Source: an uncultured Opitutales bacterium
GTDB lineage: Bacteria; Verrucomicrobiota; Verrucomicrobiia; Opitutales; CAYWEO01
Length of the DNA stretch: 64,000 nucleotides
Assembly (NCBI GenBank): GCA_964457855.1
Contig: CAYWEO010000001.1
Span: 81,747-145,746, forward strand
Direction of reading: 5' to 3'
Shown one piece after another: positions 5,552 to 55,249 of this stretch. A program made the translations under genes and the position numbers. Within the stretch, counting starts at the first letter, position 1. The number at the start of each line of letters is the position of its first letter. Under the pieces are notes generated by a model that did no database searches, was not told the origin of the DNA, and saw only the letters and a list, made by a program, of their open reading frames with translations.

Positions 5552-5668
5552 CCGCGTCGCTTTTGAGCGGCGAGTTCGTTGCGCATTGTTCTCAATGCCA
5601 TCACGTACTACAGTACGCTCAGGCATCTCGGCCTCGCGCGCCTGCTCGTCATCTCAAAATCGAAGCGG
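5552..5668 (+). repeat. F2 long-hairpin repeat, subtype a
   Basis: Left end CCGCGTCGCTTTTGAG and right end CTCAAAATCGAAGCGG are complementary at 14/16 positions. Apex TCACGTAC-TACA-GTACGCTC. Starts 3 nt after the yebC stop. Confidence 0.85.
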
Positions 5669-5683
5669 TTTCTGCTCAGACAA

Positions 5684-5822
5684 GGGACTTCCGAACCTTT
5701 CAAAGAAAAGTCATATCGGAAGGCATTTTTGTGGCACAGAGTGCCAAAAAATGCCTTTCGAATTAAGAGTTTTTTTGGAAAGGGTACGGGAAAACCTATT
5801 TTTGCAAAAAATGGTTTTCCCG
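5684..5822 (+). repeat. F1 triple-hairpin mosaic repeat (A truncated; B, C intact)
   Basis: Right half of A only (about 5684-5710). B 5717-5760 (apical stem GTGGCAC/GTGCCAA). C 5787-5822. Confidence 0.85.
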
Positions 5823-5871
5823 TATAAAAATAGTTGATTCTCGTGAAAAAATATCTACTTTAGTCAGGATC

Positions 5872-10138: not shown

Positions 10139-10309
10139 CCGGGAAAACCATTTTTTACAAAAATAGGTTTTCCCGGACCCTTTCCAAAAAAATCTTTGTT
10201 CGGAAGGCATTTTAGTTCGGCCTGTAAGGCCGAACTAAAATGCCTTCCGATATCGCTTTTCTTTGGAGGGTTCGGGAACCTTTCTGTTCTTGGAACAGAA
10301 AGGTTCCCG
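10139..10309 (-). repeat. F1 triple-hairpin mosaic repeat, full copy (C-B-A on top strand)
   Basis: C 10139-10176. B 10201-10249 (apical stem AGTTCGGCC/GGCCGAACT). A 10273-10309. C starts 6 nt after the helicase stop. Confidence 0.9.
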
Positions 10310-10368
10310 AAAGAAAAGTTTCCGAATGCCATTGACAGCTTTGACAGAAACGGGTCATATAGATAGTC

Positions 10369-10504: not shown

Positions 10505-10762
10505 ATGAAAAAGGAAGGTCATCCAAAGCTTAACGCGGTTTGTTTTAAAGATGTTTCCACTGGGAAGCGGTTTCTGGTGCGTTCGGCGATGCGTTCGAAG
10601 CAGACAGAAGTCATTGATGGAGAGGAGCATTTCCTAGTGATTCGTGATGTTACGTCGGATTCGCATCCTGCGTACACGGGAGAGAAGAGGTTTGTGGATA
10701 CTGCGGGCAGAGTCGAAAGCTTCAACCGTAGGTATAAACGCCGTGGCGATTTTGAGCGCTAG
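10505..10762 (+). CDS. rpmE: 50S ribosomal protein L31, type B
   Basis: MKKEGHPKLNAVCFKD...DVTSDSHPAYTG with no CxxC pair. The last codons and the stop lie inside the first F2 unit. Confidence 0.85.
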   Translation: MKKEGHPKLNAVCFKDVSTGKRFLVRSAMRSKQTEVIDGEEHFLVIRDVTSDSHPAYTGEKRFVDTAGRVESFNRRYKRRGDFER

Positions 10763-11063
10763 GGTTCCGTTACAAGAAAACTTCAACCCCGTCACGTATT
10801 TCAATACGCTCGGGGGTTAAAATTTTCTTGTAGCCGTCCCTATCATCTCAAACTTACCACGGCGTCTCCGTTAGGCTAGGGTATTTCGTGCGCCTGCTCG
10901 TCATCTTAAATTTAGAGCAGTAACTGTCGCGTGAGTGCATAAATTTTCTTGCAGCCGTTCCTATCATCTCGAACTGACTACGGTGTCATGCGTCTGGTCG
11001 GCGTAAGTGCGCTCAGAGGTTAAGGTATTTCGCGCGCCTGCTCGTCATCCTAAGATCGAGGCC
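10739..11063 (+). repeat. F2 subtype-b copy (10739-10864) followed by a patchwork of F2 arm fragments
   Basis: Unit 1 is flanked by CGCCGTGG/CCACGGCG. Downstream are fragments such as GTGCGCCTGCTCGTCATCTTAAAT, TTTTCTTGCAGCCGTTCCTATCATCTCGAAC and CGCGCGCCTGCTCGTCATCCTAAGATCG. Confidence 0.8.
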
Positions 11064-12408: not shown

Positions 12409-12444
12409 ATAAAAAAAACGGCGGAAAGACTCCGCCGTTTTTTT
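12409..12444. promoter_or_regulatory. symmetrical terminator-like hairpin in the divergent region upstream of the permease gene
   Basis: A-run + ACGGCGG-AAAGACT-CCGCCGT + T-run. It reads as an intrinsic terminator on both strands and lies about 75-105 nt upstream of the permease ATG. Confidence 0.5.
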
Positions 12445-12616: not shown

Positions 12617-12782
12617 CCGGGAACCCTTCTTTTCGAAGAAAAGAAGGGTTCCCGGGCCCTCCTAAGAAAAGCATATCGAAAGGCATTTTTGTGGCACGAA
12701 GTGCCAAAAAATGCCTTCCGAACGAGAGTTTTTTTGGAAAGGGTCCGGGAAAACCTATTTTTGCAAAAAATGGTTTTCCTGG
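12617..12782 (+). repeat. F1 triple-hairpin mosaic repeat, full copy (A-B-C)
   Basis: A 12617-12655. B 12677-12720. C 12745-12782. Sits in a divergent promoter region. Confidence 0.9.
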
Positions 12783-13724: not shown

Positions 13725-15182
<1,458 letters not shown>

Positions 15183-15598: not shown

Positions 15599-15718
15599 AA
15601 GGGCTCCTGTTTGAGCGGCAAGTGCGTTGCGCATCGGATCTCGCTGCCATCACGTACGTTAGTACGCTCAGGCATCTTGTCCTCGCGCGCCTGCTTGTCA
15701 TCTCAAACGGGAGCCCTT
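15599..15718 (+). repeat. F2 long-hairpin repeat, subtype a
   Basis: Flanks AAGGGCTCCTGTTTGAG / CTCAAACGGGAGCCCTT match at 16/17 positions. Apex TCACGTAC-GTTA-GTACGCTC. Starts 4 nt after the rpmG stop. Confidence 0.9.
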
Positions 15719-15765: not shown

Positions 15766-15935
15766 CCGAAAAAACCATTTTTTATAAAAATAGGTTTTCC
15801 AGGACCATTTCCAAAAAAATCTTCATTCGGAAGGCATTTTTCAGGCAGTATAATGCCTGAAAAATGCCTTCCGATATCGCTTTTCTTTTGAAGGTTCGGA
15901 AATTTATTCTTTTCTCTGGAAAAGAAAAGTTTCCG
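15766..15935 (-). repeat. F1 triple-hairpin mosaic repeat, full copy (C-B-A)
   Basis: C 15766-15803. B 15828-15873 (apical stem CAGGCA/TGCCTG). A 15897-15935. Confidence 0.9.
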
Positions 15936-15948
15936 AAATATTTCTCCT

Positions 15949-16921: not shown

Positions 16922-18454
16922 ATGAGTACGTTTACAAAGCCGGCAGAAAATCATCAATTTTCTAAGTTACGTTCTATCTTCTTTCCGATACATACCTATG
17001 AGTTAAAGAAAGCGCTTCCAATGGGGATGATTTTTTTCTTTATCTTGTTCAACTACACATGTTTACGTAACGTGAAGGATGCCCTCGTGGTTACGCATAC
17101 GGGCGCAGAGGCATTGTCATTTTTGAAACTCTTTTGCGTGATGCCATCGGCTATTATCTTCATGTTGATGTATGCAGGCGCCAGTAACATTTTGAGCAAC
17201 GAAAAGTTGTTTTATTTTACGCTAACGCCCTTTATCGTGTTTTTCGGCCTATTCGCCTTCTGGATTTACCCCAATCGTGTGATGCTGCATCCGGCTCCCG
17301 AAACGATTGTGGCCTTGCAGACCGCTTACCCCTCATTGCACTGGTTTTTCGCGATTTTTGGCGTGTGGAGCTACGGAATGTTCTACGTTTTGGCAGAAAT
17401 TTGGGGAAGTGCTATCCTTTCACTGTCTTTCTGGCAGTTTGCGAACCAGATCACGCACATGAAAGAAGCCAAGCGCATGTACGCGTTTTTCGCCATTATG
17501 GCGCAATTTTCGTTGATTCTTTCGGGTATGTGGGGAGAGCATTTCTCAGATATTCGTTCGACGGTCTCATCCGGAATGGATCCCTGGCAGATTTCCCTTA
17601 ACTGGTTAATGGGCGCAGTCGTTGTGTGCGGTGTTCTGACGATGTTGATTTATCGCTGGATCTATCGCTGCGTCCTCACCGACAAGCGTTTTTACGATAA
17701 GCCAGAAATGCCCGGCGTTACCAAGAAAAAGAAAAAAGCAAGCCTCATTGAGAGCATGAAAGTCATCTTTTCCTCCCCATACCTTGGTCTCATCGTAGCC
17801 CTCGTTGTCGCCTACGGAATTACTGTAAACCTCATTGAAGGCCTCTGGAAGAGCCAATTGGAGGTCAAGTACCCGAATCCCAACGATTATAACACGTTTA
17901 TGAACCAGTACAGTCAATGGACTGGGTACGCGTCGATCGTCATTATGATCGTTGGTAGCAACATATTACGTCTCTTCCGTTGGTTTACGGCGGCCGTCAT
18001 CACGCCTCTCGTTTTCCTCGTTGGCGGTATCCTTTTCTTCACTTTCATTCTCTTTAGGACAGAACTCGGCAACATAATTGCTGGATTCGGCTCCAATCCC
18101 GTCACAATCGCTGTGTTTTTGGGTGTCACTGTTCTCGTTATCGCGAAATCCACTAAGTACGCCTTGTTCGACCTAACGAAGGAGATGGCTTACATCCCCC
18201 TCGACGAGGAAATGAAGGTCAAAGGTAAGGCCGTTGTTGACGTCGTTGGCGGACGCCTCGGCAAGTCCGGTGGCGCAGGATTCCAAGTCTTCCTCTTCCA
18301 ACTCGGTGGCTGGATCCTCAGCGCAAAGGTCACGTACACCCAAATTGCCCCCTACGCTTTCGGTTGCTTCCTCGTCATTACCGTCATTTGGATCGTCGCC
18401 GTGAAGTCCCTAAGTAAGCGTGTGGATGCCGCCAGCCAAGTCGCTGGCGAGTGA
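16922..18454 (+). CDS. ATP/ADP (nucleotide) translocase, TLC/NTT family
   Basis: 510-aa polytopic protein with the characteristic N-terminus (...FFPIHTYELKKALPMGMIFFFILFNYTCLRNVKDALVV...), as in the nucleotide transporters of Chlamydiae and Rickettsiales. Confidence 0.9.
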   Translation: MSTFTKPAENHQFSKLRSIFFPIHTYELKKALPMGMIFFFILFNYTCLRNVKDALVVTHTGAEALSFLKLFCVMPSAIIFMLMYAGASNILSNEKLFYFTLTPFIVFFGLFAFWIYPNRVMLHPAPETIVALQTAYPSLHWFFAIFGVWSYGMFYVLAEIWGSAILSLSFWQFANQITHMKEAKRMYAFFAIMAQFSLILSGMWGEHFSDIRSTVSSGMDPWQISLNWLMGAVVVCGVLTMLIYRWIYRCVLTDKRFYDKPEMPGVTKKKKKASLIESMKVIFSSPYLGLIVALVVAYGITVNLIEGLWKSQLEVKYPNPNDYNTFMNQYSQWTGYASIVIMIVGSNILRLFRWFTAAVITPLVFLVGGILFFTFILFRTELGNIIAGFGSNPVTIAVFLGVTVLVIAKSTKYALFDLTKEMAYIPLDEEMKVKGKAVVDVVGGRLGKSGGAGFQVFLFQLGGWILSAKVTYTQIAPYAFGCFLVITVIWIVAVKSLSKRVDAASQVAGE

Positions 18455-18455
18455 T

Positions 18456-18573
18456 ACAGGGCGATTTTGAGCGGCGAGTTCGTTGCGCATCAGTCTCAAT
18501 GCCATCACGTACGTTAGTACGCTCAGGCATCTCGTCCTCGCGCGCCTGCTCGTCATCTCAAAATCGCCCCTGT
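18456..18573 (+). repeat. F2 long-hairpin repeat, subtype a (best-preserved copy)
   Basis: Flanks ACAGGGCGATTTTGAG / CTCAAAATCGCCCCTGT. Apex TCACGTAC-GTTA-GTACGCTC. Starts 1 nt after the translocase stop. Confidence 0.9.
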
Positions 18574-18602: not shown

Positions 18603-18775
18603 CCGGAGGAGGTGTTTTTTGCAAAAAGCACCCCCTCCGGACCTCTCCCTTAAAAACTCTTAATTCGAAGGGCATTTTCATTCGGCCTGTAAGGCCAAAT
18701 GAAAATGCCCTTCGATATGCTTTTCTTTGAAGGGTTCGGGAAACATTTCTTTTCTTCGAAAAGAAAGTTTCCCGG
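18603..18775 (-). repeat. F1 triple-hairpin mosaic repeat, full copy (C-B-A)
   Basis: C 18603-18640 (stem variant CCGGAGGAGGTG/GCACCCCCTCCGG). B 18666-18714. A 18737-18774. Confidence 0.9.
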
Positions 18776-23189: not shown

Positions 23190-23945
23190 TTACGTTTTGC
23201 TTGGAACTTTTAGCCACTCGTACCCCTTACTCTCAAGTTCTTGTACAAGAGAGCTTTTCCCCGAACGCACAATCGCCCCGTCGTAAAGAATATGGACAAA
23301 ATCGGGCTCCAAAATGTCGAGAATCCGCTGATAGTGTGTGATGACCAAAATGCCCGTCTGATGGGAATTTTTTAGAGCTTGAATCCCTTGAACGACAATC
23401 TTTAACGCATCGATGTCGAGGCCGCTATCAATCTCATCCAGAATCACAAACGACGGCTCCAGCATCAACATTTGCAAGATTTCACACCGCTTCTTCTCCC
23501 CGCCCGAAAAACCATCGTTTAACGCCCTCGATGTGAACGATTTATCGATCTTTAGCAGCTCCATCTTCTGGTAGAGCGTTTTATAAAATTGCGTCGGGGA
23601 AAACGGCATCGAAGGATTTTTCGCGCAAATCGCCGCTCGGATGAAGTTTGCCACGCTGATTCCCAGCAACGCCGATGGATGCTGGAACGCCAAAAAAAGG
23701 CCCCGTTTCGCGATCACGTCAGGATCCATTCCAACGATATTCTCTTGATTAAGAAGGACTTCTCCCTGAGTAATCACATAATCCGGATGCCCCGCAAGCG
23801 CCTTCGCCAGAGAACTCTTCCCCATCCCGTTCGGCCCCATCAACGCGTGCACTTCCCCCTTCGGAACCGCTAACGAAAGATCCCGCAAAACCCCCTTGTC
23901 CCCAATTCTAACCGATAAATCTCGAATCTCTAAGCACTCCGGCAT
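23190..23945 (-). CDS. sufC: Fe-S cluster assembly ATPase SufC
   Basis: ABC ATPase motifs (GPNGMGKSSL, FSGGEKKRCEILQ, ILDEIDSGLD). The track start 23957 is a TTG. ATG 23945 (MPECLEIRDLSV) is preferred. Confidence 0.9.
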   Translation of the reverse strand: MPECLEIRDLSVRIGDKGVLRDLSLAVPKGEVHALMGPNGMGKSSLAKALAGHPDYVITQGEVLLNQENIVGMDPDVIAKRGLFLAFQHPSALLGISVANFIRAAICAKNPSMPFSPTQFYKTLYQKMELLKIDKSFTSRALNDGFSGGEKKRCEILQMLMLEPSFVILDEIDSGLDIDALKIVVQGIQALKNSHQTGILVITHYQRILDILEPDFVHILYDGAIVRSGKSSLVQELESKGYEWLKVPSKT

Positions 23946-24011
23946 GAACAAAGACAATTGCGCGACGTTAACGCAAAGTCAATGTCTTTTGGTGGGAAGG
24001 AGAGGTGGGAA

Positions 24012-24186
24012 CCGGAAACTTTTCTGTTCCAGAACAGAAAAAGTTTCCGGACCTTCAAAAGAAAAGCGATATCGGAAGGCATTTTTGCGCGGCCTATAAG
24101 GCCGCACAAAAATGCCTTCCGAATTAAGAGTTTTTTGGGTGAGGAAGCCGGGAAAACCAATTTTTGCAAAAAATGGTTTTCCCGGC
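24012..24186 (+). repeat. F1 triple-hairpin mosaic repeat, full copy (A-B-C)
   Basis: A 24012-24050. B 24073-24121 (apical stem GCGCGGCC/GGCCGCAC). C 24147-24186. C ends 3 nt from the proS stop. Confidence 0.9.
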
Positions 24187-24189
24187 TTC

Positions 24190-25698
24190 CTAATACGCCT
24201 TCGCGAAAATGACCTGCTGTGTTGTCGCCTGTCCCGTAAACGGGCAGACGCCCTGGGTTTTTGGGGCGTCGAAGGGGATGCAGCGGATGGTGACCTTGAG
24301 GTCGTGTTTGAGTTGCTCTTCGAGCTGGGGGGTTCCGGCCCAGTGGGTGAGGGCAAAACCGCCATGGATCTCGGGTTTTGCGGTGTTTTTTGGTGTAAAG
24401 AAGTCGTAAAAGGCCTGTTTAGAGGAGATCGTGACAGTGTGGGCGTCACGGAAGGCGGTGGCGCGTGCAAGGAGGATGTCCTGAATGGATTGGAGAATGC
24501 TGGGCAGCGTCGCGAGAAAGTCGTTCTGGGAGAGGGATGTGCGCAACTTTGGGGATTGGGTCCGTTGGATATAGGAAATGGCGTTTGCGGCGACTTCTTT
24601 TGGCCCGATTTCAAGGAGGATCGGAACGCCTTTTTTGGTCCAGTGCCAGAGTTTGTCGCCGCCCCGCATGTCACGGTCGTCGATGGAGACCTGGATGGGT
24701 TTGCCGTCGAACGTGAGGCGCTGGATAGCGCTCTGTAGGGTCTTGCAATACGCGAGGACGGACTCCGGATCCTTCTGCAGCATCGGCAGTATCACCACGT
24801 GCACGGGAGCAATTTTCGGCGGAAGCACGAGGCCGTTGTCGTCGGAATGGACCATAATCAGCCCCCCGATGATGCGTGTCGAAACTCCCCACGATGTCGT
24901 CCAGGCGTGCTCCGTTTTCCCCGACTGGCTTGCAAATTGGATGCCTATCGATTTCGAGAAATTCTGTCCCAAAAAGTGCGAAGTTCCCGACTGTAAGGCC
25001 TTCCGGTCCTGCATCATCGTCTCGATGCAATACGTGTTCACAGCCCCGGGAAAGCGTTCACTCTCCGTCTTTTCGCCGCAAATCACCGGAATCGCAAGCG
25101 TGTTTTTAGCGAAATCGGCATAAACCTGCAACATTTGCAACGTCTCGTCAATCGCCTCTTGCTCAGTTGCATGCGCCGTATGTCCTTCCTGCCAAAGAAA
25201 TTCCATTGTTCTTAAGAAAAGTCGCGTGCGCATTTCCCATCGGACGATGTTTGCCCATTGGTTAATCTTCAACGGCAGGTCGCGATACGACTGGATCCAA
25301 CGCGCAAACATCTCCCCGATAATGGTTTCCGATGTCGGCCGCACCACCAGCGGCTCCTCTAACGGCGACGTCGGCACAAGCTTCCCCTCAGCGTTCGCCT
25401 CAAGCCTCGAATGCGTTACCACCGCGCACTCCTTCGCGAACCCCTCCACGTGCTTCGCCTCCTTCTCCAGATAACTCAACGGAATTAGCAACGGAAAATA
25501 GGCGTTTTGATGCCCCGTCCGCTTGAATTCCTTATCCAAAATCGCCTGAATGTTCTCCCAAATCGCGTACCCCCACGGCTTGATCACCATGCACCCCCGT
25601 ACAGGCGAATTCTCCGCCAAATCCGCCGCCTTAATCACTTCTTGATACCACTCCGAATAATTTTCTGCCCGCGTCGGTGTTATCGCTGTCTTTTCCAT
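24190..25698 (-). CDS. proS: prolyl-tRNA synthetase, short (archaeal/eukaryote-like) architecture
   Basis: 502-aa class II aaRS with N-terminus EWYQEVIKAADLAENSPVRGCMVIKPWGYAIWE, no insertion domain, and a C-terminal domain ending ...FAKAY. Confidence 0.9.
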   Translation of the reverse strand: MEKTAITPTRAENYSEWYQEVIKAADLAENSPVRGCMVIKPWGYAIWENIQAILDKEFKRTGHQNAYFPLLIPLSYLEKEAKHVEGFAKECAVVTHSRLEANAEGKLVPTSPLEEPLVVRPTSETIIGEMFARWIQSYRDLPLKINQWANIVRWEMRTRLFLRTMEFLWQEGHTAHATEQEAIDETLQMLQVYADFAKNTLAIPVICGEKTESERFPGAVNTYCIETMMQDRKALQSGTSHFLGQNFSKSIGIQFASQSGKTEHAWTTSWGVSTRIIGGLIMVHSDDNGLVLPPKIAPVHVVILPMLQKDPESVLAYCKTLQSAIQRLTFDGKPIQVSIDDRDMRGGDKLWHWTKKGVPILLEIGPKEVAANAISYIQRTQSPKLRTSLSQNDFLATLPSILQSIQDILLARATAFRDAHTVTISSKQAFYDFFTPKNTAKPEIHGGFALTHWAGTPQLEEQLKHDLKVTIRCIPFDAPKTQGVCPFTGQATTQQVIFAKAY

Positions 25699-25761: not shown

Positions 25762-25929
25762 CCGGAGAACCATTTTTTTGCAAAAAATTGGTTCTCCGGA
25801 CCTCTCCAAAAAAAACTCTCGTTCGAAGCGAATTTTTGAGGCACGTAGTGCCACAAAAATTCGCTTCGATACCGCTTTTCTTTTGAAGGTTCGGAAACTT
25901 CTTCTTTTCTTCGAAAAGAAAAGTTTCCG
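25762..25929 (-). repeat. F1 triple-hairpin mosaic repeat, full copy (C-B-A)
   Basis: C 25762-25799 (stem CCGGAGAACC). B 25824-25868, with basal stem CGAAGCGAATTTTT/AAAAATTCGCTTCG changed on both arms. A 25892-25929. Confidence 0.9.
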
Positions 25930-25949
25930 AAATTATTTTCTTCAACCCC

Positions 25950-28367
25950 CTACTCCACATCGACAATGACGAATGATCGCAGATCATTCGTCATTGTCGA
26001 TGTGCGTTGGATGGTAGCGTGGAAGAGGGTGGTTTGTGGGGCGACGGGGGACGTGTCGGCGTAGATCCAGAGTTTCAGGGTATCGGAGCGTGGGGAGACG
26101 TAGGGGGAGAGGATTGCAAGGAGGTCCGATTGGGAGAGTGAGTTACCGTCGAGGAAGGGGGAATTGGTTTGCACAATTTCTTGTTTTGTGAGGTCGATGG
26201 CCGCTTGGAGGGCCCCTATTTTGCTGAGGCCATTGGGATCATTGGCGGTTTCGAGGATTCTCCGATTGACGAAATCGGCGAGGGACATCCAGGGGGCGCG
26301 GAGGGAGGCCTGTTTGGCGATGTGTTTGGCGAGTATTTTGATGGTTTTTTCGTCGAAGGAGAGGGTTTGGTTGAGGACATTTTTAACGTCTTTTTTGAGT
26401 AAGTGTTTCTTTAGAAAGCGATTCCAGGCATCGGCGGACGTTGTGTTAATGTTAAAACTGCCCGGTTGGGTCTTTTTTTTGGTTGGTTCTTTTTCGGGCT
26501 GGACGAAGAAGCAATCCCAGAGGTGTTCGTTGAGAAGGAAGGGGATGTCGTACAAAAATTTCTTTTCAGACTTAATCTCTTCTCGTGGAATGCCTTGCAA
26601 GTAATAACTATTTCCAATAGCGTACGTAGGAACAGTTCCCATGGGGGAAGCGAAATGCCGCAGATCGGCGAGGGACTTCAGCTTCGGGAAATGAAACAGT
26701 GGAAGTTGTTGGGCGCTAAAGATATCGTTCCGACCCTGTAAATCTTCGTAGGTGAGCGGCTGTTGGTTGGTGGTATCGCGTAGAAAGCCTTCGGGGGTAT
26801 TGCCGAGAACGCCCTTCCATTTCCAATAACTCTTGGGTGATAGGGAGTTGCAAACAAGCATTCCTCGGGGATTTTGCGACTCAAGGCCTTCAGAAAGCTT
26901 GTCTTCCGGCGGGATGGTCAATACCAATGAAGTGGTTAATTTGGGGGCTTTGGGGGCCTGATCGTTCAAAGTGAACGTCCCGGATTCCGTTTTTGCACCG
27001 TTCGTTTCGATGGGGATATCGATGATGTTTTGCAGAACGGAAACTGTCTTGTCACAGACTATAGAAAACTCCAAATTCGCTTTCGTCCAATCGGAGTTGA
27101 GTTTGATGGCTGCGTACGGCGTTTTTTGGGTTACGGAATTGTCGACAACGACCGTTTTTATGGGAAACGTGAAGAACTGGACCTCTCCGGGAGCAAAAGC
27201 GGTCTCGAAAGTGCCGGAAATTCCTGAGGTTTTTTCAAAAAGTTTACTGGGTGCAACTTCGATGTGCTGCATGCGACTGCTTTTGGGGAATGAAATGCGG
27301 AGGGTTTGATTTTTGTTGAAAACGTAGCGGATTTGGTACTTTTCGGATTCCATTGTTCTGTCGTAGGGGTTCCAGACGGCGACACCAAAATAGCCGTGGA
27401 GGAGGATGGAATTCCCCGCCTTTGAGCAATGATAACCGATCGCGCACTGAATGGGAATGGGATAGATGCCGCACGTTGCTTGCGTATCGTCATCGACCGT
27501 GTTGTTGGCGATCAATTTCCCCCAATCCCCCTCAAAAGTGTCGTTAGTTTTGGGGAAAAGGAAGGGGTGCGGCGTTAAATTATCGGTGTTGAGCGACTTT
27601 CCGAGCTGGTAGAATTCGTTGAGCTGTCCCCATGTACCGCCGATGGACGCAACGAGCTTGGCGTCCGGAACGTCCTTCAAGATGGGCGTATTTTTGTGCT
27701 CCGGTTTCGCGATGAACGCAAGAAGATCCTCTTTGTCGCCTCCCTGCATGCCGTCGGACAGAACCCCTTCGTGCGCATCGGTTTGACCAAGGTCTTCGAT
27801 CCAATACGCATAATGGCCGATCACGTCTTGCGTATTGGCGCTAAAAATGGGGATTTTTTCGGCAAAAACGGCGTCTTTTCGGCCTGTTATTTCGGGCGGA
27901 AAACTCACGCGTTCGGGCTCAGCCATTTTGACCGTAGACGCAAAATCGTCTTTAAGAACGGCATCCAGGTGGTCGTTGGTAACGGACACTAGCCATTTGA
28001 CGAACGTCCGCTCGTGGGGTTTTCGTGAATTCCAATCGCTTCCCGACTTCCAAACGCCGAGCCAACCCAAGTGTTCTTTGCAGAGTGGGCTAAGTTGCTT
28101 ATCATCTTCTTTTGCAAGTAGTTCTGCGGAGCCCGTCACTCTGCAGTCGGGACCCAACGTTTTCTGAACATCAGCAATCACTTTTTGCAGGCCGAAAAAG
28201 GCAATTTGTTCGCACTGGAGCTGCATTTTGCGTTGATAGGAAGCCGCCATATGCCCCCCAACGAAACCCACCGAGAGCATCATCATGAGGGAGAGCCAGC
28301 CGAACAGTAAGAGGGTCCAAATCAACGCGATCCCACTGGTTTTGTGACGTAAATGACTTGCTCGCAT
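25950..28367 (-). CDS. large membrane-anchored protein, GspK/minor-pseudopilin-like N- and C-termini
   Basis: Start trimmed to ATG 28367 (MRASHLRHKTSGIALIWTLLLFGWL...), which removes the overlap with lpxI. C-terminus: FNINTTSADAWNRFL...PWMSLADFVNR...LSPYVSPRSDTLKLWI, resembling the GspK helix-hairpin-helix region. The family call is tentative. Confidence 0.45.
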   Translation of the reverse strand: MRASHLRHKTSGIALIWTLLLFGWLSLMMMLSVGFVGGHMAASYQRKMQLQCEQIAFFGLQKVIADVQKTLGPDCRVTGSAELLAKEDDKQLSPLCKEHLGWLGVWKSGSDWNSRKPHERTFVKWLVSVTNDHLDAVLKDDFASTVKMAEPERVSFPPEITGRKDAVFAEKIPIFSANTQDVIGHYAYWIEDLGQTDAHEGVLSDGMQGGDKEDLLAFIAKPEHKNTPILKDVPDAKLVASIGGTWGQLNEFYQLGKSLNTDNLTPHPFLFPKTNDTFEGDWGKLIANNTVDDDTQATCGIYPIPIQCAIGYHCSKAGNSILLHGYFGVAVWNPYDRTMESEKYQIRYVFNKNQTLRISFPKSSRMQHIEVAPSKLFEKTSGISGTFETAFAPGEVQFFTFPIKTVVVDNSVTQKTPYAAIKLNSDWTKANLEFSIVCDKTVSVLQNIIDIPIETNGAKTESGTFTLNDQAPKAPKLTTSLVLTIPPEDKLSEGLESQNPRGMLVCNSLSPKSYWKWKGVLGNTPEGFLRDTTNQQPLTYEDLQGRNDIFSAQQLPLFHFPKLKSLADLRHFASPMGTVPTYAIGNSYYLQGIPREEIKSEKKFLYDIPFLLNEHLWDCFFVQPEKEPTKKKTQPGSFNINTTSADAWNRFLKKHLLKKDVKNVLNQTLSFDEKTIKILAKHIAKQASLRAPWMSLADFVNRRILETANDPNGLSKIGALQAAIDLTKQEIVQTNSPFLDGNSLSQSDLLAILSPYVSPRSDTLKLWIYADTSPVAPQTTLFHATIQRTSTMTNDLRSFVIVDVE
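25957..26003. repeat. perfect 22-bp inverted repeat with 3-nt loop inside the last 17 codons of the 25950-28367 gene
   Basis: ACATCGACAATGACGAATGATC-GCA-GATCATTCGTCATTGTCGATGT. It encodes ...TSTMTNDLRSFVIVDV and sits just before the final Glu codon and the stop. Confidence 0.85.
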
Positions 28368-28371
28368 AGGC

Positions 28372-29259
28372 TTAGCTTTCAAGCGCAACGGCAGTATCGG
28401 CATCAAACCCCAGTAATGTAATGCGGAGCTCCTTTGCACGGGCCAAAACACGTTCTTTTTCCAAAATCAGGACCTTTTTGGCCTCGAGCGCGGCGTATTC
28501 GATACCGGATGCGTGCAAAAGTTCGAGGGTTTTCATGCCAAAAACGGGGACATCGAAGCGAAAATCGTGGTTTTGATGGCTGGCTTTGACGAAAATGGGA
28601 GACGGCGCGTGGAAATCCTTAATGCGCGAAATCAAGCCATCGGTCCCGTCAAAACCTTCAACGCCAAGGACGGTTCCCTTGCTGACAACGACACTCTGCC
28701 CGATTTTCAATGTTGCGACTTTTTTCGCTAAATCAATTCCGTGCTGAATCCACTCTTGTTTGAGTTTCCCAAAAGGTCCAGCCATCATCCCGAGATCGGC
28801 CAAATGCACGTCCATAAAGCTCCTCGCGTCCAACAAAACCACGCCGCAGTGCTCAATTTCAGTCACAATTGCGCCAAAAATCGTTTCCGCGTTGCGCTCC
28901 TTCAGTTTCGCAAGCATCAAAATAGCCTTCATATCCAGATGCAAGTCGTGAAATAAGCGACGCGGGGTGATTTGCCCGGCCATAACGGCGTAGGGAGTCG
29001 CAAAATTCTTCAACGCTTTCAATAATTTCCCAATCTGCCCGACTTTGAGCACAACCCGTTGCCCCTCATCCACTTTTGCGAGTAAACTCTCCGATGTTTC
29101 CCCCTCAAAACCAATCACAAAAGCCTTCACGCCGGAACGCTTCATACCGTCGAACAAGAGTTCCGGATAAAATCCCTGTCCAGCAATCAAGCAAACGGCA
29201 TTTCCTTCAGGCGTTAACCCTTTCTCCGTGAATCCTTTATGGAGGAATTGCGATTGCAT
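28372..29259 (-). CDS. lpxI: UDP-2,3-diacylglucosamine diphosphatase LpxI (DUF1009)
   Basis: CLIAGQGFYPELL near the N-terminus and IGQSVVVSKGTVLGVEGFDGTDGLISR in the C-terminal domain. Confidence 0.75.
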   Translation of the reverse strand: MQSQFLHKGFTEKGLTPEGNAVCLIAGQGFYPELLFDGMKRSGVKAFVIGFEGETSESLLAKVDEGQRVVLKVGQIGKLLKALKNFATPYAVMAGQITPRRLFHDLHLDMKAILMLAKLKERNAETIFGAIVTEIEHCGVVLLDARSFMDVHLADLGMMAGPFGKLKQEWIQHGIDLAKKVATLKIGQSVVVSKGTVLGVEGFDGTDGLISRIKDFHAPSPIFVKASHQNHDFRFDVPVFGMKTLELLHASGIEYAALEAKKVLILEKERVLARAKELRITLLGFDADTAVALES

Positions 29260-47500: not shown

Positions 47501-48238
47501 ATGGTTTTAGACAACAATGCCCTTTTAATGTACGACCGAGCACTGTGCGCGGATGCTGGCCTAGTCGGTGTTGATGAAGCCGGCAGGGGGGCTCTGGCGG
47601 GACCGGTTGTTGCTGCTGCTGCTTGGGTAAAACAAGATTTTTACGACAAAGAACCCGAGGAATGCAAAAAAGTGCGCGATTCCAAAACCCTTCCCGCGCT
47701 TACCCGCGAAAAATTGTTCAATCAGTTTGTTTCCTGGGAGCAAGAAGGGCTTATTGCCTTTAGTTGGGCCCAGGCAAGCGTCGTCGAGATAGACGTCTGT
47801 AACATCTTAGGCGCCACACACTTAGCAATGAGGCGGGCTCTAGACGTTCTTGCTAGCAAACTCCCCAAATCCCTCTGCCTCGAACCCCAAATCAATGCCG
47901 ATCTTGACGACAACGACGCTGCAGAATGGCTCGGAACCCGTACCCCCCTCCGCATTCTCGTCGATGGACCTCCCGTCAAACCCTTTGACTACAAACACGA
48001 AGGCGTTATTTCCGGCGACAAAAAAAGCTTCGCTATCGCCCTGGCCTCGATCGTCGCCAAAGTCTCCCGCGACTGCCTCATGCTCGAACTCGACTCCCTC
48101 TACCCCGCCTACGGATTTGCCAAACACAAAGGCTACGGGACCCCCGAACACTCCGCCGCCATCCTCAAGCACGGCCAAACGGACGAACATAGGTCCCTAT
48201 TTTTGACGAAACTTTTCTCAAGGAGAGGGAAAGAGTAG
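47501..48238 (+). CDS. rnhB: ribonuclease HII
   Basis: VGVDEAGRGALAGPVVAAA and the ...DSKTLP... motifs. Confidence 0.9.
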   Translation: MVLDNNALLMYDRALCADAGLVGVDEAGRGALAGPVVAAAAWVKQDFYDKEPEECKKVRDSKTLPALTREKLFNQFVSWEQEGLIAFSWAQASVVEIDVCNILGATHLAMRRALDVLASKLPKSLCLEPQINADLDDNDAAEWLGTRTPLRILVDGPPVKPFDYKHEGVISGDKKSFAIALASIVAKVSRDCLMLELDSLYPAYGFAKHKGYGTPEHSAAILKHGQTDEHRSLFLTKLFSRRGKE

Positions 48239-48245
48239 GTTTTTT

Positions 48246-48411
48246 CCGGAGGGGGTGTTTTTTGCAAAAAGCACCCCCTCCGGACCTCCCCCTTAAAAAC
48301 TCTCGTTCGGAAGGCATTTTTTGGCACTTCGTGCCTAAAAAATGCCTTCCGATGCCGCTTTTCTTTTGAAGGTTCGGAAACGTTTTCTGTTCTGGAACAG
48401 AAAAGTTTCCG
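48246..48411 (-). repeat. F1 triple-hairpin mosaic repeat, full copy (C-B-A)
   Basis: C 48246-48283. B 48308-48351 (apical stem GGCAC/GTGCC). A 48375-48411. C starts 7 nt after the rnhB stop. Confidence 0.9.
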
Positions 48412-48433
48412 AGTCTCACCAACCAAAAACAAT

Positions 48434-51414: not shown

Positions 51415-51626
51415 TGAAGCCGTAACGGATTGGATTAAAGTAAAGATTAGCTCAGACATCTAAGCGGCGACATCAGCAAAAAGGCTCAGGAAGGGGCTTT
51501 TTTCACTTGCTAATGTCGTGATGAGTTTGGATTTAAAAGCGTACGATTTTCTTGAAAGTTTATTGAGAAGAATTCTTGACTCTTTTTCCGAATTACGATG
51601 CATTACTTTCCATCACCCTACGTATC

Positions 51627-52532
51627 ATGTTTACCTTTCGTAAAATTGTCTATTCCAGTTTGTCGTTACTTGCGCTTTGCGCCTCTTTGAGTGCCGCCCC
51701 AAAGGAGTCTCAAGGGATCTTGCTTTGCGGCAATACTTTAAGCGAGTGCCGCATTGATGTCAATAACGCCAAAATACAGGTGAAATGCGTGAAGGGCGTT
51801 CAGCCAAAACTCACTTATCATCCTTGCACTTGCGGTCAGTGTCGGTTCACGGCTCATGTTTCCGGAAACACGTTAGTCGTTAAGCATCAGGCGAAAAAGG
51901 AATCCCCATGTTCCGTAGATTTGGACCTCATTGTGCCGCCTTCCTGCAATTTTGAGATCGAGGCAAAAAGCCAATTGCAGCTGACAACGAGCGGAGATGT
52001 GCTTGGCGACGTGACGATTGCCGCGAATAGGGGCACAATCGCGATCAATACGGAGTGCAAAAATTGTAGGATCGATTCGAATAGATGCTCCTTTGAATGC
52101 ACGCAAAAGATTCAGGGAAATTTGAAAATTGATGGCAATCGCGCTGACATCAAGGTTACGAATGTGGGGGGCAATGTTGACATAGACACGAACAGGGGCT
52201 CGTTTAAATGCACGCAAAAGATTCAAGGGAGCTTAAATATCGATAGCAATAGAACCGACGTTAACGTCGCAGACGTGGGAGGCAATGTCGAACTGGATGC
52301 CAATAAAGGAACGCTGTTATTGACGTATTTAACTATTCCAGCGCAACCTGTTAAGATTGACATCAAGGTGAACGAAGCTGCGATTACACTCTCGCTCCCT
52401 AAAAATGCGCATGTGCTGACAGACATTAAGGTGGATGAAGCAACGATCCAGGACCATTCGGAGGCGACCGGACCCGTTCATTTTAGCATCAAAGCGTCAT
52501 TGAAAGCCGGCAATCTCTCCATCAATCATTAA
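51627..52532 (+). CDS. exported repeat protein (DUF4097/beta-helix-like)
   Basis: Start set at ATG 51627 (MFTFRKIVYSSLSLLALCASLSAAP). Contains an internal 37-aa tandem repeat CTQKIQG.L.ID.NR.D..V..VGGNV..D.N(R/K)G. Confidence 0.5.
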   Translation: MFTFRKIVYSSLSLLALCASLSAAPKESQGILLCGNTLSECRIDVNNAKIQVKCVKGVQPKLTYHPCTCGQCRFTAHVSGNTLVVKHQAKKESPCSVDLDLIVPPSCNFEIEAKSQLQLTTSGDVLGDVTIAANRGTIAINTECKNCRIDSNRCSFECTQKIQGNLKIDGNRADIKVTNVGGNVDIDTNRGSFKCTQKIQGSLNIDSNRTDVNVADVGGNVELDANKGTLLLTYLTIPAQPVKIDIKVNEAAITLSLPKNAHVLTDIKVDEATIQDHSEATGPVHFSIKASLKAGNLSINH

Positions 52533-53700: not shown

Positions 53701-53830
53701 AAAAGAGGCCGTTGGGCGGCCGGGGAAACGCCGGTTTTTGGGCTATTGAAACGCGACGGATTAGCGGCTCTATCCTAAAATCGGGTAGTTAATTTTACTT
53801 TTTGATGGGATTGAGCCAAATTTTTATATT

Positions 53831-53908
53831 CGGAAGGCATTTTTCTGGCACATAGTACCAGAAAAATGCCTTCCGATATGCTTTTCTTTGAAAGGTTCGG
53901 AAAAAATC
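53831..53908 (-). repeat. F1 mosaic repeat, partial (B + half of A)
   Basis: B 53831-53875 (apical stem CTGGCAC/GTACCAG). The spacer and left half of A extend to about 53908. Confidence 0.8.
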
Positions 53909-53942
53909 ACGGCGTTTGAGCAGTTTTTGAAAAACCGCCTTT

Positions 53943-54045
53943 GTTTTAAGATGACGGGTAGGCGCGCGAGAATTTTAACCCTCGAGCGTACTAACGTACG
54001 TGAGCGGGGTTGAAATTTGAGCGCAACACCCCCGCCGCTTAAAAC
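53943..54045 (-). repeat. F2 long-hairpin repeat, chimeric a/b copy
   Basis: Termini GTTTTAAG/CTTAAAAC. Apex CGTAC-TAAC-GTACG. The outer arm is F2a-like (GACGGGTAGGCGCGCGAG) and the inner arm is F2b-like (GGGGTTGAAATTT). It overlaps the tsaC stop codon. Confidence 0.8.
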
Positions 54046-55049: not shown

Positions 55050-55080
55050 GGGGAGGGTGGAGGAAGGAGGAGGAATTATT

Positions 55081-55249
55081 CGGAAACTTTTCTGTTCCAG
55101 AACAGAAAACGTTTCCGAACCTTCAAAAGAAAAGCGGTATCGGAAGGCATTTTTGTGGCACGGAGTGCCAAAAAATGCATTCCGAATAAAAATTTTTAGG
55201 GGGAAGGGTCCGGGAAACCCCCTTTTTTATAAAAAAGGGGGTTTCCCGG
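55081..55249 (+). repeat. F1 triple-hairpin mosaic repeat, full copy (A-B-C)
   Basis: A 55081-55117. B 55141-55184. C 55210-55249 (stem CCGGGAAACCCCC). C ends 4 nt from the lpdA stop. Confidence 0.9.

What the first reader, a model, noticed from the sequence alone, without database searches (positions are those of the whole stretch)
24012..24186. All three F1 hairpins share the same basal clamp CGG(A/G)A...T(C/T)CCG
A is CCGGAAAC...GTTTCCGG. B is CGGAAGGC...GCCTTCCG. C is CCGGGAAAACC...GGTTTTCCCGG or CCGGAGGGGG...CCCCCTCCGG. So three otherwise unrelated helices open with the same 5-6 nt. This is what one expects if a single protein (nuclease, transposase, nucleoid or RNA-binding protein) recognises the base of each hairpin. 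C is additionally a full palindrome through its centre (TTTTTGCAAAAA), so it is cruciform-capable.
Basis: partly seen in the sequence, partly recalled or inferred. Interest (0 to 1): 0.55.

Follow-up and report, generated by a model that had tools for sequence, protein, structure and literature searches.

The report
Three-hairpin intergenic repeat element copy
The three hairpins are one copy of a ~175-215-nt palindromic repeat that fills about one intergenic spacer in every 5 kb of this uncultured PVC-group bacterium. Their shared CGG-purine "clamp" is best explained by mirror duplication plus G:C stem closure, not by a protein-recognition site.

Summary
Window 24012-24191 holds three very stable hairpins (A, B, C), and each opens with YCGGRA and closes with TYCCGR.

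They are not a local curiosity. They form one copy of a dispersed repeat with 14 loci in 64 kb, in both orientations and always intergenic. Assemblies break at these repeats. Pairing is strongly supported: 94% of cells are paired, and 25 of 63 pairs show compensatory double changes against 14.4±2.1 in shuffles.

The helices are not "otherwise unrelated". The element is one long imperfect palindrome centred on B, and A plus its linker is the mirror homologue of C plus its linker.

The 5-mer clamp is no better conserved than neighbouring stem positions in A and B. In B its third base covaries (G-C to A-T). Only C keeps CCGG while its interior varies.

Diverged copies with the same C-B-A architecture occur in two related metagenomic species. 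There the A and C bases read TAAGGGAA and TTGRGAGA, and B lacks the CGGAAGG block altogether.

The element is therefore a new REP/BIME/MITE-like family. Its clamp is lineage-specific, and no protein partner is in evidence. Mobilisation and any 3'-end RNA role are inferred, not shown.

The parts
23990..24011 (+). Purine-rich outer flank of the element (TGGTGGGAAGGAGAGGTGGGAA). It is the mirror of the pyrimidine-rich flank found beyond hairpin C in other copies, so it looks like a terminal inverted repeat.
   Evidence: reading outward, both flanks follow AAWAYW-CCYCYYYCCC in most copies. (D17): 23990-24087 is 86% identical to 55058-55155.
24012..24050 (+). Hairpin A (CCGGAAACTTTTCTGTTC-CA-GAACAGAAAAAGTTTCCGG), with one bulged A in the 3' arm.
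   Evidence: -15 kcal/mol, z -6.6; logo; covariation, helix 1.
24051..24071 (+). Linker 1 (ACCTTCAAAAGAAAAGCGATA), conserved in sequence and complementary to linker 2.
   Evidence: pairs 73-76/166-169 and 82-86/153-157.
24072..24122 (+). Hairpin B, the centre of the dyad. The basal 14 bp (TCGGAAGGCATTTT) are conserved. The apical 7-10 bp and the loop vary with compensation.
   Evidence: (-27.7 kcal/mol, z -11.8), and 61 (helices 4 and 5).
24123..24141 (+). Linker 2 (ATTAAGAGTTTTTTGGGTG), the mirror of linker 1.
24142..24191 (+). Hairpin C. The core is 24148-24185 and the palindromic apex TTTTTGCAAAAA is at 24161-24172. In this copy the stem is extended by GGAAGC/GCTTCC and overlaps the TAG stop of proS (24190-24192, minus strand) by 2 nt.
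   Evidence: -24.1 kcal/mol, z -8.7; proS.
5687..5824 (+). Copy c1 (A degenerate; B and C intact).
10139..10310 (-). Copy c2. The TGA stop of the SNF2-helicase gene lies inside the element's outer flank.
12617..12782 (+). Copy c3, in a divergent promoter region.
15766..15936 (-). Copy c4, between convergent genes.
18603..18775 (-). Copy c5, downstream of the ATP/ADP translocase gene.
25762..25930 (-). Copy c7, upstream of proS.
31939..32112 (+). Copy c8.
43404..43477 (-). Copy c14, a degenerate solo C hairpin.
45634..45770 (-). Copy c13 (A intact, B decayed, C lost), in a divergent region.
48246..48412 (-). Copy c9. The TAG stop of the RNase HII gene lies inside the element's flank.
53830..53905 (-). 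Copy c10 (B plus a remnant of A).
55080..55249 (+). Copy c11. A gene stop lies 4 nt from C (TGATTTTCCGG on the gene strand).
61364..61537 (-). Copy c12. The rpoN stop lies 4 nt from C (TGATTTTCCGG).

Best explanation
Window 24012-24191 is one copy of a lineage-restricted, high-copy, non-coding repeat. The core is about 175 nt, or about 215 nt with its flanks. Its architecture is one long imperfect palindrome: purine-rich flank, hairpin A, linker, hairpin B at the dyad centre, mirror linker, hairpin C, pyrimidine-rich flank. It belongs to the same kind of element as REP/BIME/REPIN, Correia, ERIC and BOX: small, hairpin-forming, non-autonomous intergenic repeats.

Shown:
- multi-copy dispersal in both orientations;
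- truncated and decayed copies;
- reassortment of A, B and C subtypes among copies;
- strong selection or maintenance of base pairing;
- presence of diverged versions with the same architecture in two related species.

Inferred:
- Copies spread by a trans-acting enzyme, or by recombination, that needs the folded single-stranded or TIR-like structure.
- Once inserted just after stop codons, the hairpins sit in 3' UTRs. There they probably act as 3'-end barriers or weak terminators, as REP elements do.

The shared YCGGRA/TYCCGR clamp has three likely causes:
- A and C are mirror homologues.
- Three G:C pairs are needed to close stems that are otherwise A/T-run-rich, in a 47.5% GC genome.
- B acquired a symmetric 7-bp basal block (GGAAGGC/GCCTTCC) in this lineage, possibly by conversion from the A/C base.
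For: Copy number and distribution:
- 12 copies by eye plus 2 by profile search, 14 loci covering 4.1% of 64 kb.
- All copies are intergenic. All 4 convergent gene pairs identified by eye (c4, c5, c10, c12) carry one, and two copies lie in divergent regions.
- Short-read assemblies of the same organism break inside the hairpins.
- A 96%-identical copy sits at a contig end in a JGI metagenome.

Pairing:
- 63 pairs with 94.1% of cells paired.
- 25 pairs have changes on both sides, against 14.4±2.1 in shuffles (0/500) and 5-10 in the slid controls.

Dyad symmetry:
- The left half matches the reverse complement of the right half with P<0.001 in c2 and c3 and P=0.004 in c7.
- The two flanks are mirror images.
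- Reverse-strand profile hits reach about 1e-20.

Other points:
- Subtype combinations include all four 'gametes' for A-B and for B-C (sequences).
- Relatives L124 and L126 have 3-4 copies per 21 kb. They share the C-B-A order, homologous linkers (CCCCTCTCAAAACTTTTA; TTTTGAGGGTT) and GGAAAC in A, but have different hairpin bases and no CGGAAGG block in B.
- There is no Rfam family at gathering score.
Against: - No transposase or RAYT is present among the 43 window proteins scanned, nor in the gene tables of the relatives' loci.
- No target-site duplication was detectable.
- No empty-site or filled-site polymorphism could be obtained, so mobility is inferred from distribution only.
- Orientation relative to the upstream gene is not significantly biased: C comes first in 5 of 7 co-directional copies here and in 8 of 12 when the relatives are included.
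- G.T and A.C mismatches give no strand preference (about 6 vs 4 events), so RNA-level and DNA-level function cannot be separated.
- Only 14 copies from one 64-kb window, plus 6-7 copies in relatives, were available.
Confidence: 0.6

Rival explanations
1. Host-functional 3'-end module. The three hairpins would be a (bidirectional) transcription terminator or mRNA 3'-end stabiliser cassette kept by selection at operon ends. High copy number would then reflect the need for many such modules rather than mobility.
For: - Most copies sit within 3-35 nt of stop codons, and all 4 convergent gene pairs identified by eye (c4, c5, c10, c12) carry one.
- In the C-to-B-to-A direction, B and A are followed by T-rich tails (TATCGCTTTTCTTTT; ATATTCTTTCTTCTTTT).
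- B is flanked by an A-tract and a T-tract, as in bidirectional terminators.
- Stem covariation is strong, and the architecture is conserved in two other species.
Against: - Only 3 element hairpins pass a canonical stem-plus-U-tract scan, and terminator-like sites are not enriched over shuffles (24 vs 28.9; 21 vs 27.7).
- U-tracts start 6-8 nt after the B stem.
- Copies also lie in divergent promoter regions (c3, c13).
- In relatives the element lies downstream of a separate canonical terminator after the NTT gene.
- This genome has ordinary terminators of its own (12412-12444).
- There is no significant orientation bias.
Confidence: 0.25
2. One reading: a single sequence-specific protein (nuclease, transposase, nucleoid or RNA-binding protein) recognises CGGRA/TYCCG at the foot of each hairpin. 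The analogy is RAYT recognising the GTAG foot of REP hairpins.
For: - CGG/CCG is invariant in A (12/12) and nearly so in C, while the next 8 bp of C vary with compensation.
- RAYT-REP and IS200/IS605 TnpA-hairpin recognition are precedents (PMC3733652).
- A conserved bulge in many A copies resembles the imperfect hairpins used by HUH enzymes.
Against: - In B the clamp is less conserved than the rest of the stem, and its third base covaries.
- The A/C identity follows from mirror homology.
- The homologous elements in two related species have different bases, and B there lacks the block.
- CGGRA occurs about 160 times outside the elements at the expected frequency.
- There is no candidate protein in the window.
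Confidence: 0.15
3. A multi-copy structured small-RNA gene family, in which each copy is its own transcription unit.
For: - The three-stem structure covaries.
- There are sub-threshold Rfam matches to IhtA (38.7 bits) and FuFi-1 (32.2 bits) on this copy.
Against: - Both Rfam scores are about half the gathering scores (76 and 59.6).
- In the whole-window E-value scan only FuFi-1 re-appeared, and only at this copy; IhtA did not re-appear. No other copy gave a match to either family.
- The IhtA match rests on a stem extension unique to c6.
- No promoter-like site is associated with the element.
- There is no strand asymmetry in wobble pairs, and copies occur in both orientations abutting coding sequence.
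Confidence: 0.05

Closest known systems
REP / BIME / REPIN elements of Proteobacteria (mobilised by RAYT tyrosine transposases)
   Same: - High-copy extragenic palindromes that form stable hairpins.
- Clustered into mosaic units with conserved linkers (BIME-like).
- Often within a few nt of stop codons.
- Compensatory changes keep the hairpins paired.
- The foot of the hairpin is conserved.
   Different: - There is no GTAG or CGTC tag; the feet read YCGG...CCGR.
- The unit is three different hairpins within one 175-215-nt palindrome, not 20-40-nt REPs.
- No RAYT was seen in the DNA available.
- The host is a PVC-group bacterium.
Correia (CREE/NEMIS) elements of Neisseria and ERIC/IRU elements of enterobacteria (MITE-like imperfect palindromes)
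   Same: - Intergenic elements of 100-200 nt with overall dyad symmetry and terminal inverted repeats.
- Present in both orientations and co-transcribed with neighbouring genes.
- Full-length and truncated forms both occur.
   Different: - There is no sequence resemblance. This rests on my own knowledge of their consensus sequences, not on an alignment made here.
- No TA or other target duplication was found.
- The three internally palindromic modules are not a feature of those families.
BOX elements of Streptococcus pneumoniae (modular boxA-boxB-boxC)
   Same: A modular three-part intergenic repeat that forms stable secondary structure, shows module-level variation and has no transposase of its own.
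   Different: - BOX modules are not three separate perfect hairpins arranged around a dyad.
- boxB varies in copy number, whereas each module occurs once here.
- The sequences and host phylum are unrelated.
Intrinsic (Rho-independent) terminators, including bidirectional ones
   Same: Hairpins at gene 3' ends, an A-tract and T-tract flanking B, and a T-rich tail after A.
   Different: - The stems are long and rich in A/T runs.
- The U-tracts are displaced by 6-8 nt.
- Most hairpins fail a canonical scan.
- The 175-nt unit is repeated as a whole.

Membership tests
REP (GTAG/CGTC-tagged) elements | Short (20-40 nt) extragenic palindromes in high copy number | tested here: inconclusive
   The copies are high-copy and extragenic. 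However, the hairpins are 39-51 nt and always form part of a 175-nt composite.
REP (GTAG/CGTC-tagged) elements | Conserved GTAG or CGTC tetranucleotide at one end of the palindrome (PMC3733652) | tested here: not met
   The hairpin ends are YCGG...CCGR in all copies. No GTAG or CGTC lies at either foot.
REP (GTAG/CGTC-tagged) elements | A cognate RAYT (IS200/IS605-type Y1 transposase) gene flanked by the repeats | not testable with these tools
   None of the 43 window proteins hits a transposase family.
[quoted passage not shown] | Terminal inverted repeats | tested here: inconclusive
   The flanks are mirror images (purine-rich on the left, pyrimidine-rich on the right) and the A/C homology is significant. 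The exact termini are undefined, and gene-proximal copies lack one flank.
[quoted passage not shown] | Target-site duplication flanking each copy | tested here: not met
   No consistent direct repeat was found at the boundaries of 10 full copies.
[quoted passage not shown] | A parent autonomous IS with the same ends | not testable with these tools
   No IS was found in the window or in the relatives' loci. The whole genome was unavailable.
Intrinsic terminator | G+C-rich stem-loop immediately followed by a U-tract | tested here: not met
   Only 3 element hairpins pass the scan (B of c4, A of c3, B of c12). Region counts do not exceed shuffles.
Rfam IhtA (RF02569) / FuFi-1 (RF02986) | Covariance-model score at or above the family's gathering threshold | tested here: not met
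   Scores are 38.7 vs 76 bits and 32.2 vs 59.6 bits, both at this copy. In the whole-window E-value scan only FuFi-1 re-appeared, again only at this copy, and IhtA did not.
Correia / ERIC / BOX families | Sequence similarity to the family consensus | not tested
   No reference sequences were in the accessible collections. The judgement of no resemblance rests on my own knowledge of their consensus sequences.

The most novel reading that the evidence does not exclude
The element is an undescribed, clade-wide family of structured mobile DNA in host-dependent PVC bacteria (NTT-encoding lineages labelled Puniceicoccales/Opitutales). Its three-hairpin palindrome would be the substrate of a hairpin-foot-recognising enzyme that co-evolves with it, with the CGG foot here and the AGG/TTG foot in relatives. 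The same element would double as a portable 3'-end or terminator cassette. This would give a REP-RAYT-like system with a different recognition code in a phylum where none is characterised.
Probability: 0.15. Interest if true: 0.55.

Novelty: new member of a known kind. Interest (0 to 1): 0.3.

Why it matters
The element takes up about 4% of this window and breaks short-read assemblies at nearly every operon boundary. Recognising it therefore explains the fragmentation of MAGs from this clade and prevents mis-annotation of gene 3' ends, because several stop codons lie inside the element.

It offers a natural data set for asking how selfish palindromic repeats keep their structure. That data set has three hairpins, reassorting subtypes and versions in three species.

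If a cognate enzyme exists, it would extend REP/RAYT-type biology to the PVC superphylum.

The specific 'shared clamp' is of minor importance. It is lineage-specific and is largely accounted for by mirror homology and G:C closure.

Tried and rejected
- **Genome-collection scan.** The 16-mer TATCGRARGGCATTTT was too short.
- **Metagenome scan.** A 25-nt pattern gave one true hit, L122, at a contig end. A viral-contig scan gave none.
- **Exact-protein look-ups.** These returned only 1.6-1.8-kb Logan contigs ending in the repeats, so no extra genome and no empty sites were obtained.
- **Loci around ProRS homologues at 67-68% identity (L117-L121).** They contain no element. They are probably not close relatives.
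- **Rfam.** There was nothing at gathering score. The sub-threshold IhtA and FuFi-1 hits were rejected as chance.
- **Restriction-modification idea (CCGG or TCCGGA as a methylase or restriction site).** CCGG has an observed/expected ratio of 0.81 and TCCGGA 0.98 outside the elements, so there is no signal.
- **Sigma-54 promoter idea for the B apex (TGGCAC-N5-GCC).** The spacing to GC is wrong by 2 nt. Rejected by inspection.
- **Paralogy of all three arms beyond the clamp.** Not significant under composition-preserving shuffles. Only the A/C mirror homology stands.
- **Strand test by G.T versus A.C mismatches.** About 6 vs 4 independent events in the hairpins, which is uninformative.
- **Literature.** No paper in the library holds the repeat sequence or describes MITE or REP families in Chlamydiae or in Puniceicoccales-type Verrucomicrobia.

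Full report
**Observation.** The region 23946-24189 is the spacer between two minus-strand genes: proS (24190-25698) and sufC (23190-23945). It contains three inverted repeats:
- A: 24012-24050.
- B: 24072-24122, with 24-nt arms that are 96% complementary.
- C: 24142-24191, with 25-nt arms, 96% complementary and no spacer.

As single-stranded DNA they fold at -15, -27.7 and -24.1 kcal/mol, with z-scores of -6.6, -11.8 and -8.7. The apex of C is the palindrome TTTTTGCAAAAA (24161-24172). The extended C stem overlaps the TAG stop of proS by two bases.

**It is a repeat family.** A window-wide search for inverted repeats, followed by inspection, gave 12 loci with the same three-hairpin unit. An nhmmer profile added two degenerate loci: c13, with A plus a decayed B, and c14, a solo C. 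The 14 loci cover 2,604 nt, or 4.1% of the window. They lie in both orientations and are all intergenic.

Seven sit between co-directional genes. Four occupy every convergent gene pair I identified (c4, c5, c10, c12). Two lie in divergent regions. In six copies a stop codon lies 3-6 nt from hairpin C or inside the element's outer flank. Examples are TGATTTTCCGG at c11 and c12, and GGGAAGAGGTGA at c2. Short-read (Logan) assemblies of the same organism end inside the hairpins.

**Structure is maintained.**
- RNAalifold on the 12 copies predicts 63 pairs, 25 of them with compensatory double changes.
- Counting on that structure gives 94.1% of cells paired, against 85.4±0.7 in shuffles.
- Pairs with changes on both sides number 25, against 14.4±2.1 in shuffles (0/500) and 5-10 when partners are slid by 1-3 columns.
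- Variation is modular. The apex of B has at least four versions: GTGGCAC/GTGCCA, a version built on CGGCC/GGCCG, GGTGGGCGC/GCGCCCACC, and CAGGCA/TGCCTG.
- The middle of C has at least four versions: GGGAAAACC, GAGGGGGTG, GAGAACCA and GGAAACCCCC.
- All four pairwise combinations occur for A-B and for B-C, so modules reassort among copies.

**Anatomy of the whole unit.** MFE folds pair linker 1 (CCTTCAAAAGAAAAGC) with linker 2 (GAGTTTTTTTGGAAAGG). The profile hits the reverse strand of every copy at E values down to about 1e-20.

Aligning the left half against the reverse complement of the right half is significant in c2 and c3 (P<0.001) and in c7 (P=0.004). In c3 the alignment runs through A/C and both linkers at about 75% identity.

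Reading outward from A and from C, both flanks follow the same pattern, AAWAYW followed by a pyrimidine-rich CCYCYYYCCC. The element is therefore one long imperfect palindrome of about 215 nt centred on the loop of B, and A and C are its mirror halves. The A/C part of the 'shared clamp' is thus one event, not two.

**The clamp itself.**
- In A, CGG is invariant (12/12), the R position is A or G with a compensating T or C, and AA is invariant. Later positions such as TT are equally invariant.
- In B, TCG is invariant but the third clamp base is G in 8 copies and A in 4. The pairs are G-C 7, A-T 3, G.T 1 and A.C 1. GGCATTTT is at least as conserved as the clamp.
- In C, CCGG is nearly invariant while the following eight pairs switch between A-T and G-C.
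- Mean information for clamp positions 2-6 versus positions 7-12 of the 5' arm is 1.84 vs 1.73 bits in A, 1.69 vs 1.80 in B, and 1.52 vs 0.77 in C.

**Relatives.** The window encodes an ATP/ADP translocase (TLC, E=3e-175), both RNase HII and HIII, a TyrP-type permease, LpxK/LpxI and RpoN. The best named homologues of the translocase are MAGs labelled Puniceicoccales or Opitutales, at 54-69% identity. I therefore call the host a probably host-dependent bacterium of the PVC superphylum and leave the phylum unresolved.

Loci around translocase homologues at 68-70% identity were fetched. A hairpin scan and a new profile found the same architecture in two of these species: three copies in L124 (35% GC) and three to four in L126 (42% GC), each in about 21 kb. 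What is shared with the window element, and what differs:
- The order C-linker-B-linker-A is the same.
- The linkers are recognisably homologous. CCCCTCTCAAAACTTTTA corresponds to CCTCCCCCTTAAAAACTCTTAAT, and TTTTGAGGGTT to CTTTTGAAGGTT.
- A keeps GGAAAC-TTTT, and C keeps its T-run/A-run apex.
- The relatives' profile weakly re-finds window copies c11, c12 and c8 in the correct orientation (E 0.01-0.09).
- The hairpin feet differ. A is TAAGGGAA...TTCCCTTA or TAAAGGAA. C is TTGRGAGA...TCTCYCAA.
- B is only TCATTTTGCAAC...GTTGCAAAATGA, without the 7-bp GGAAGGC/GCCTTCC block.

The outer C-G pairs of the clamp are thus replaced by compensated A-T or T-A pairs in AT-richer relatives, and the B clamp is specific to the window's lineage. 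Four other translocase-homologue loci (L123, L129-L131) and the loci around ProRS homologues (L117-L121) lack the element. In both relatives the copy downstream of the translocase gene lies after a separate canonical terminator.

**Function.** No Rfam family reaches its gathering score. IhtA (38.7 vs 76 bits) and FuFi-1 (32.2 vs 59.6) matched this copy in the local scan; the whole-window scan returned only FuFi-1, again at this copy, and no match at any other copy. Both rest on generic stems.

A canonical terminator scan passes only three element hairpins and finds no enrichment over shuffles. The genome does have ordinary terminators, for example at 12412-12444. T-rich tails follow B and A in the C-to-B-to-A direction, but orientation relative to the upstream gene is not significantly biased (5 of 7 here; 8 of 12 with relatives).

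Wobble versus A.C mismatches give no strand preference. No transposase is encoded in the window. No target duplication is visible. CCGG, TCCGGA and CGGRA occur outside the elements at about the expected frequency.

**Conclusion.** The finding is one copy of a new family of hairpin-forming, dyad-symmetric intergenic repeats of the REP/BIME/MITE kind, shared by a small clade of PVC bacteria.

The hairpins are real and are kept paired. The shared clamp is real in this genome. It is best explained by three things: mirror homology of A and C, the need for G:C closure of A/T-run stems, and a lineage-specific symmetric extension of B.

A single clamp-reading protein is not excluded, but it has no positive support and is weakened by the covariation in B and by the cross-species comparison. 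How the element spreads, and whether it acts as a 3'-end barrier, remain inferences. The closest precedent for hairpin-foot recognition, RAYT acting on GTAG-tagged REPs (PMC3733652), fails here on the defining tag.

Noticed in passing
window 5558-5662, 15607-15711, 18462-18566 (+), 53930-54045 (rc); partial copies at 10747-10909, 11017-11053 and 15060-15168: A second dispersed repeat family of about 105 nt (TTTTGAGCGGCGAG...CACGTACGTTAGTACG...CTCGCGCGCCTGCTCGTCATCTCAAAA). It folds as one long imperfect hairpin (z -4.9 and -5.5 for the 18462 copy). It sits directly beside three-hairpin copies c1, c4, c5 and c10, and in tandem after rpmE.
   Followed up: partly
window 25956-26004: A perfect 23-bp palindrome with a 3-nt loop (CACATCGACAATGACGAATGATC-GCA-...). 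It lies inside the last codons of the Pfam-less 833-aa ORF (25950-28451, minus strand), immediately next to copy c7.
   Followed up: no
window 12412-12444: A textbook bidirectional intrinsic terminator (A7-CGGCGGAG-TCT-TTCCGCCG-T7). It shows that the organism uses ordinary terminators alongside the repeat.
   Followed up: no
window 32118-38771 (minus strand); motif at 35882, 37004, 37749 and 38770: A run of Pfam-less genes. Some are paralogous (34731-34938 vs 35640-35847, 74% identical). Four of them are preceded by a conserved 37-nt upstream motif, ATTCTCTTAAAAAAnnACgCCcATgGCAAGCcTGAAG.
   Followed up: no
window 16922-18454; 46373-48238: The window encodes an ATP/ADP (NTP/NDP) translocase and adjacent RNase HIII-like and RNase HII genes. 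This points to an energy-parasitic, host-dependent lifestyle. The best named translocase homologues are MAGs labelled Puniceicoccales or Opitutales, not Chlamydiae.
   Followed up: partly
L124 12935-12965: In one relative's copy, an extra G+C-rich mini-hairpin (GCAGGG-GTGCTG-CCCTGC) is inserted between B and the B-A linker. This shows that modules can be added to the scaffold.
   Followed up: no
window 52071-52291: A tandem duplication of about 111 nt (73% identical) inside the DUF4097 'toastrack' gene (51576-52532).
   Followed up: no
window 10305-10325: An extra half of hairpin A (AAGAAAAGTTTCCGAA) abuts copy c2. It suggests a partial duplication or a nested remnant at the A end.
   Followed up: no
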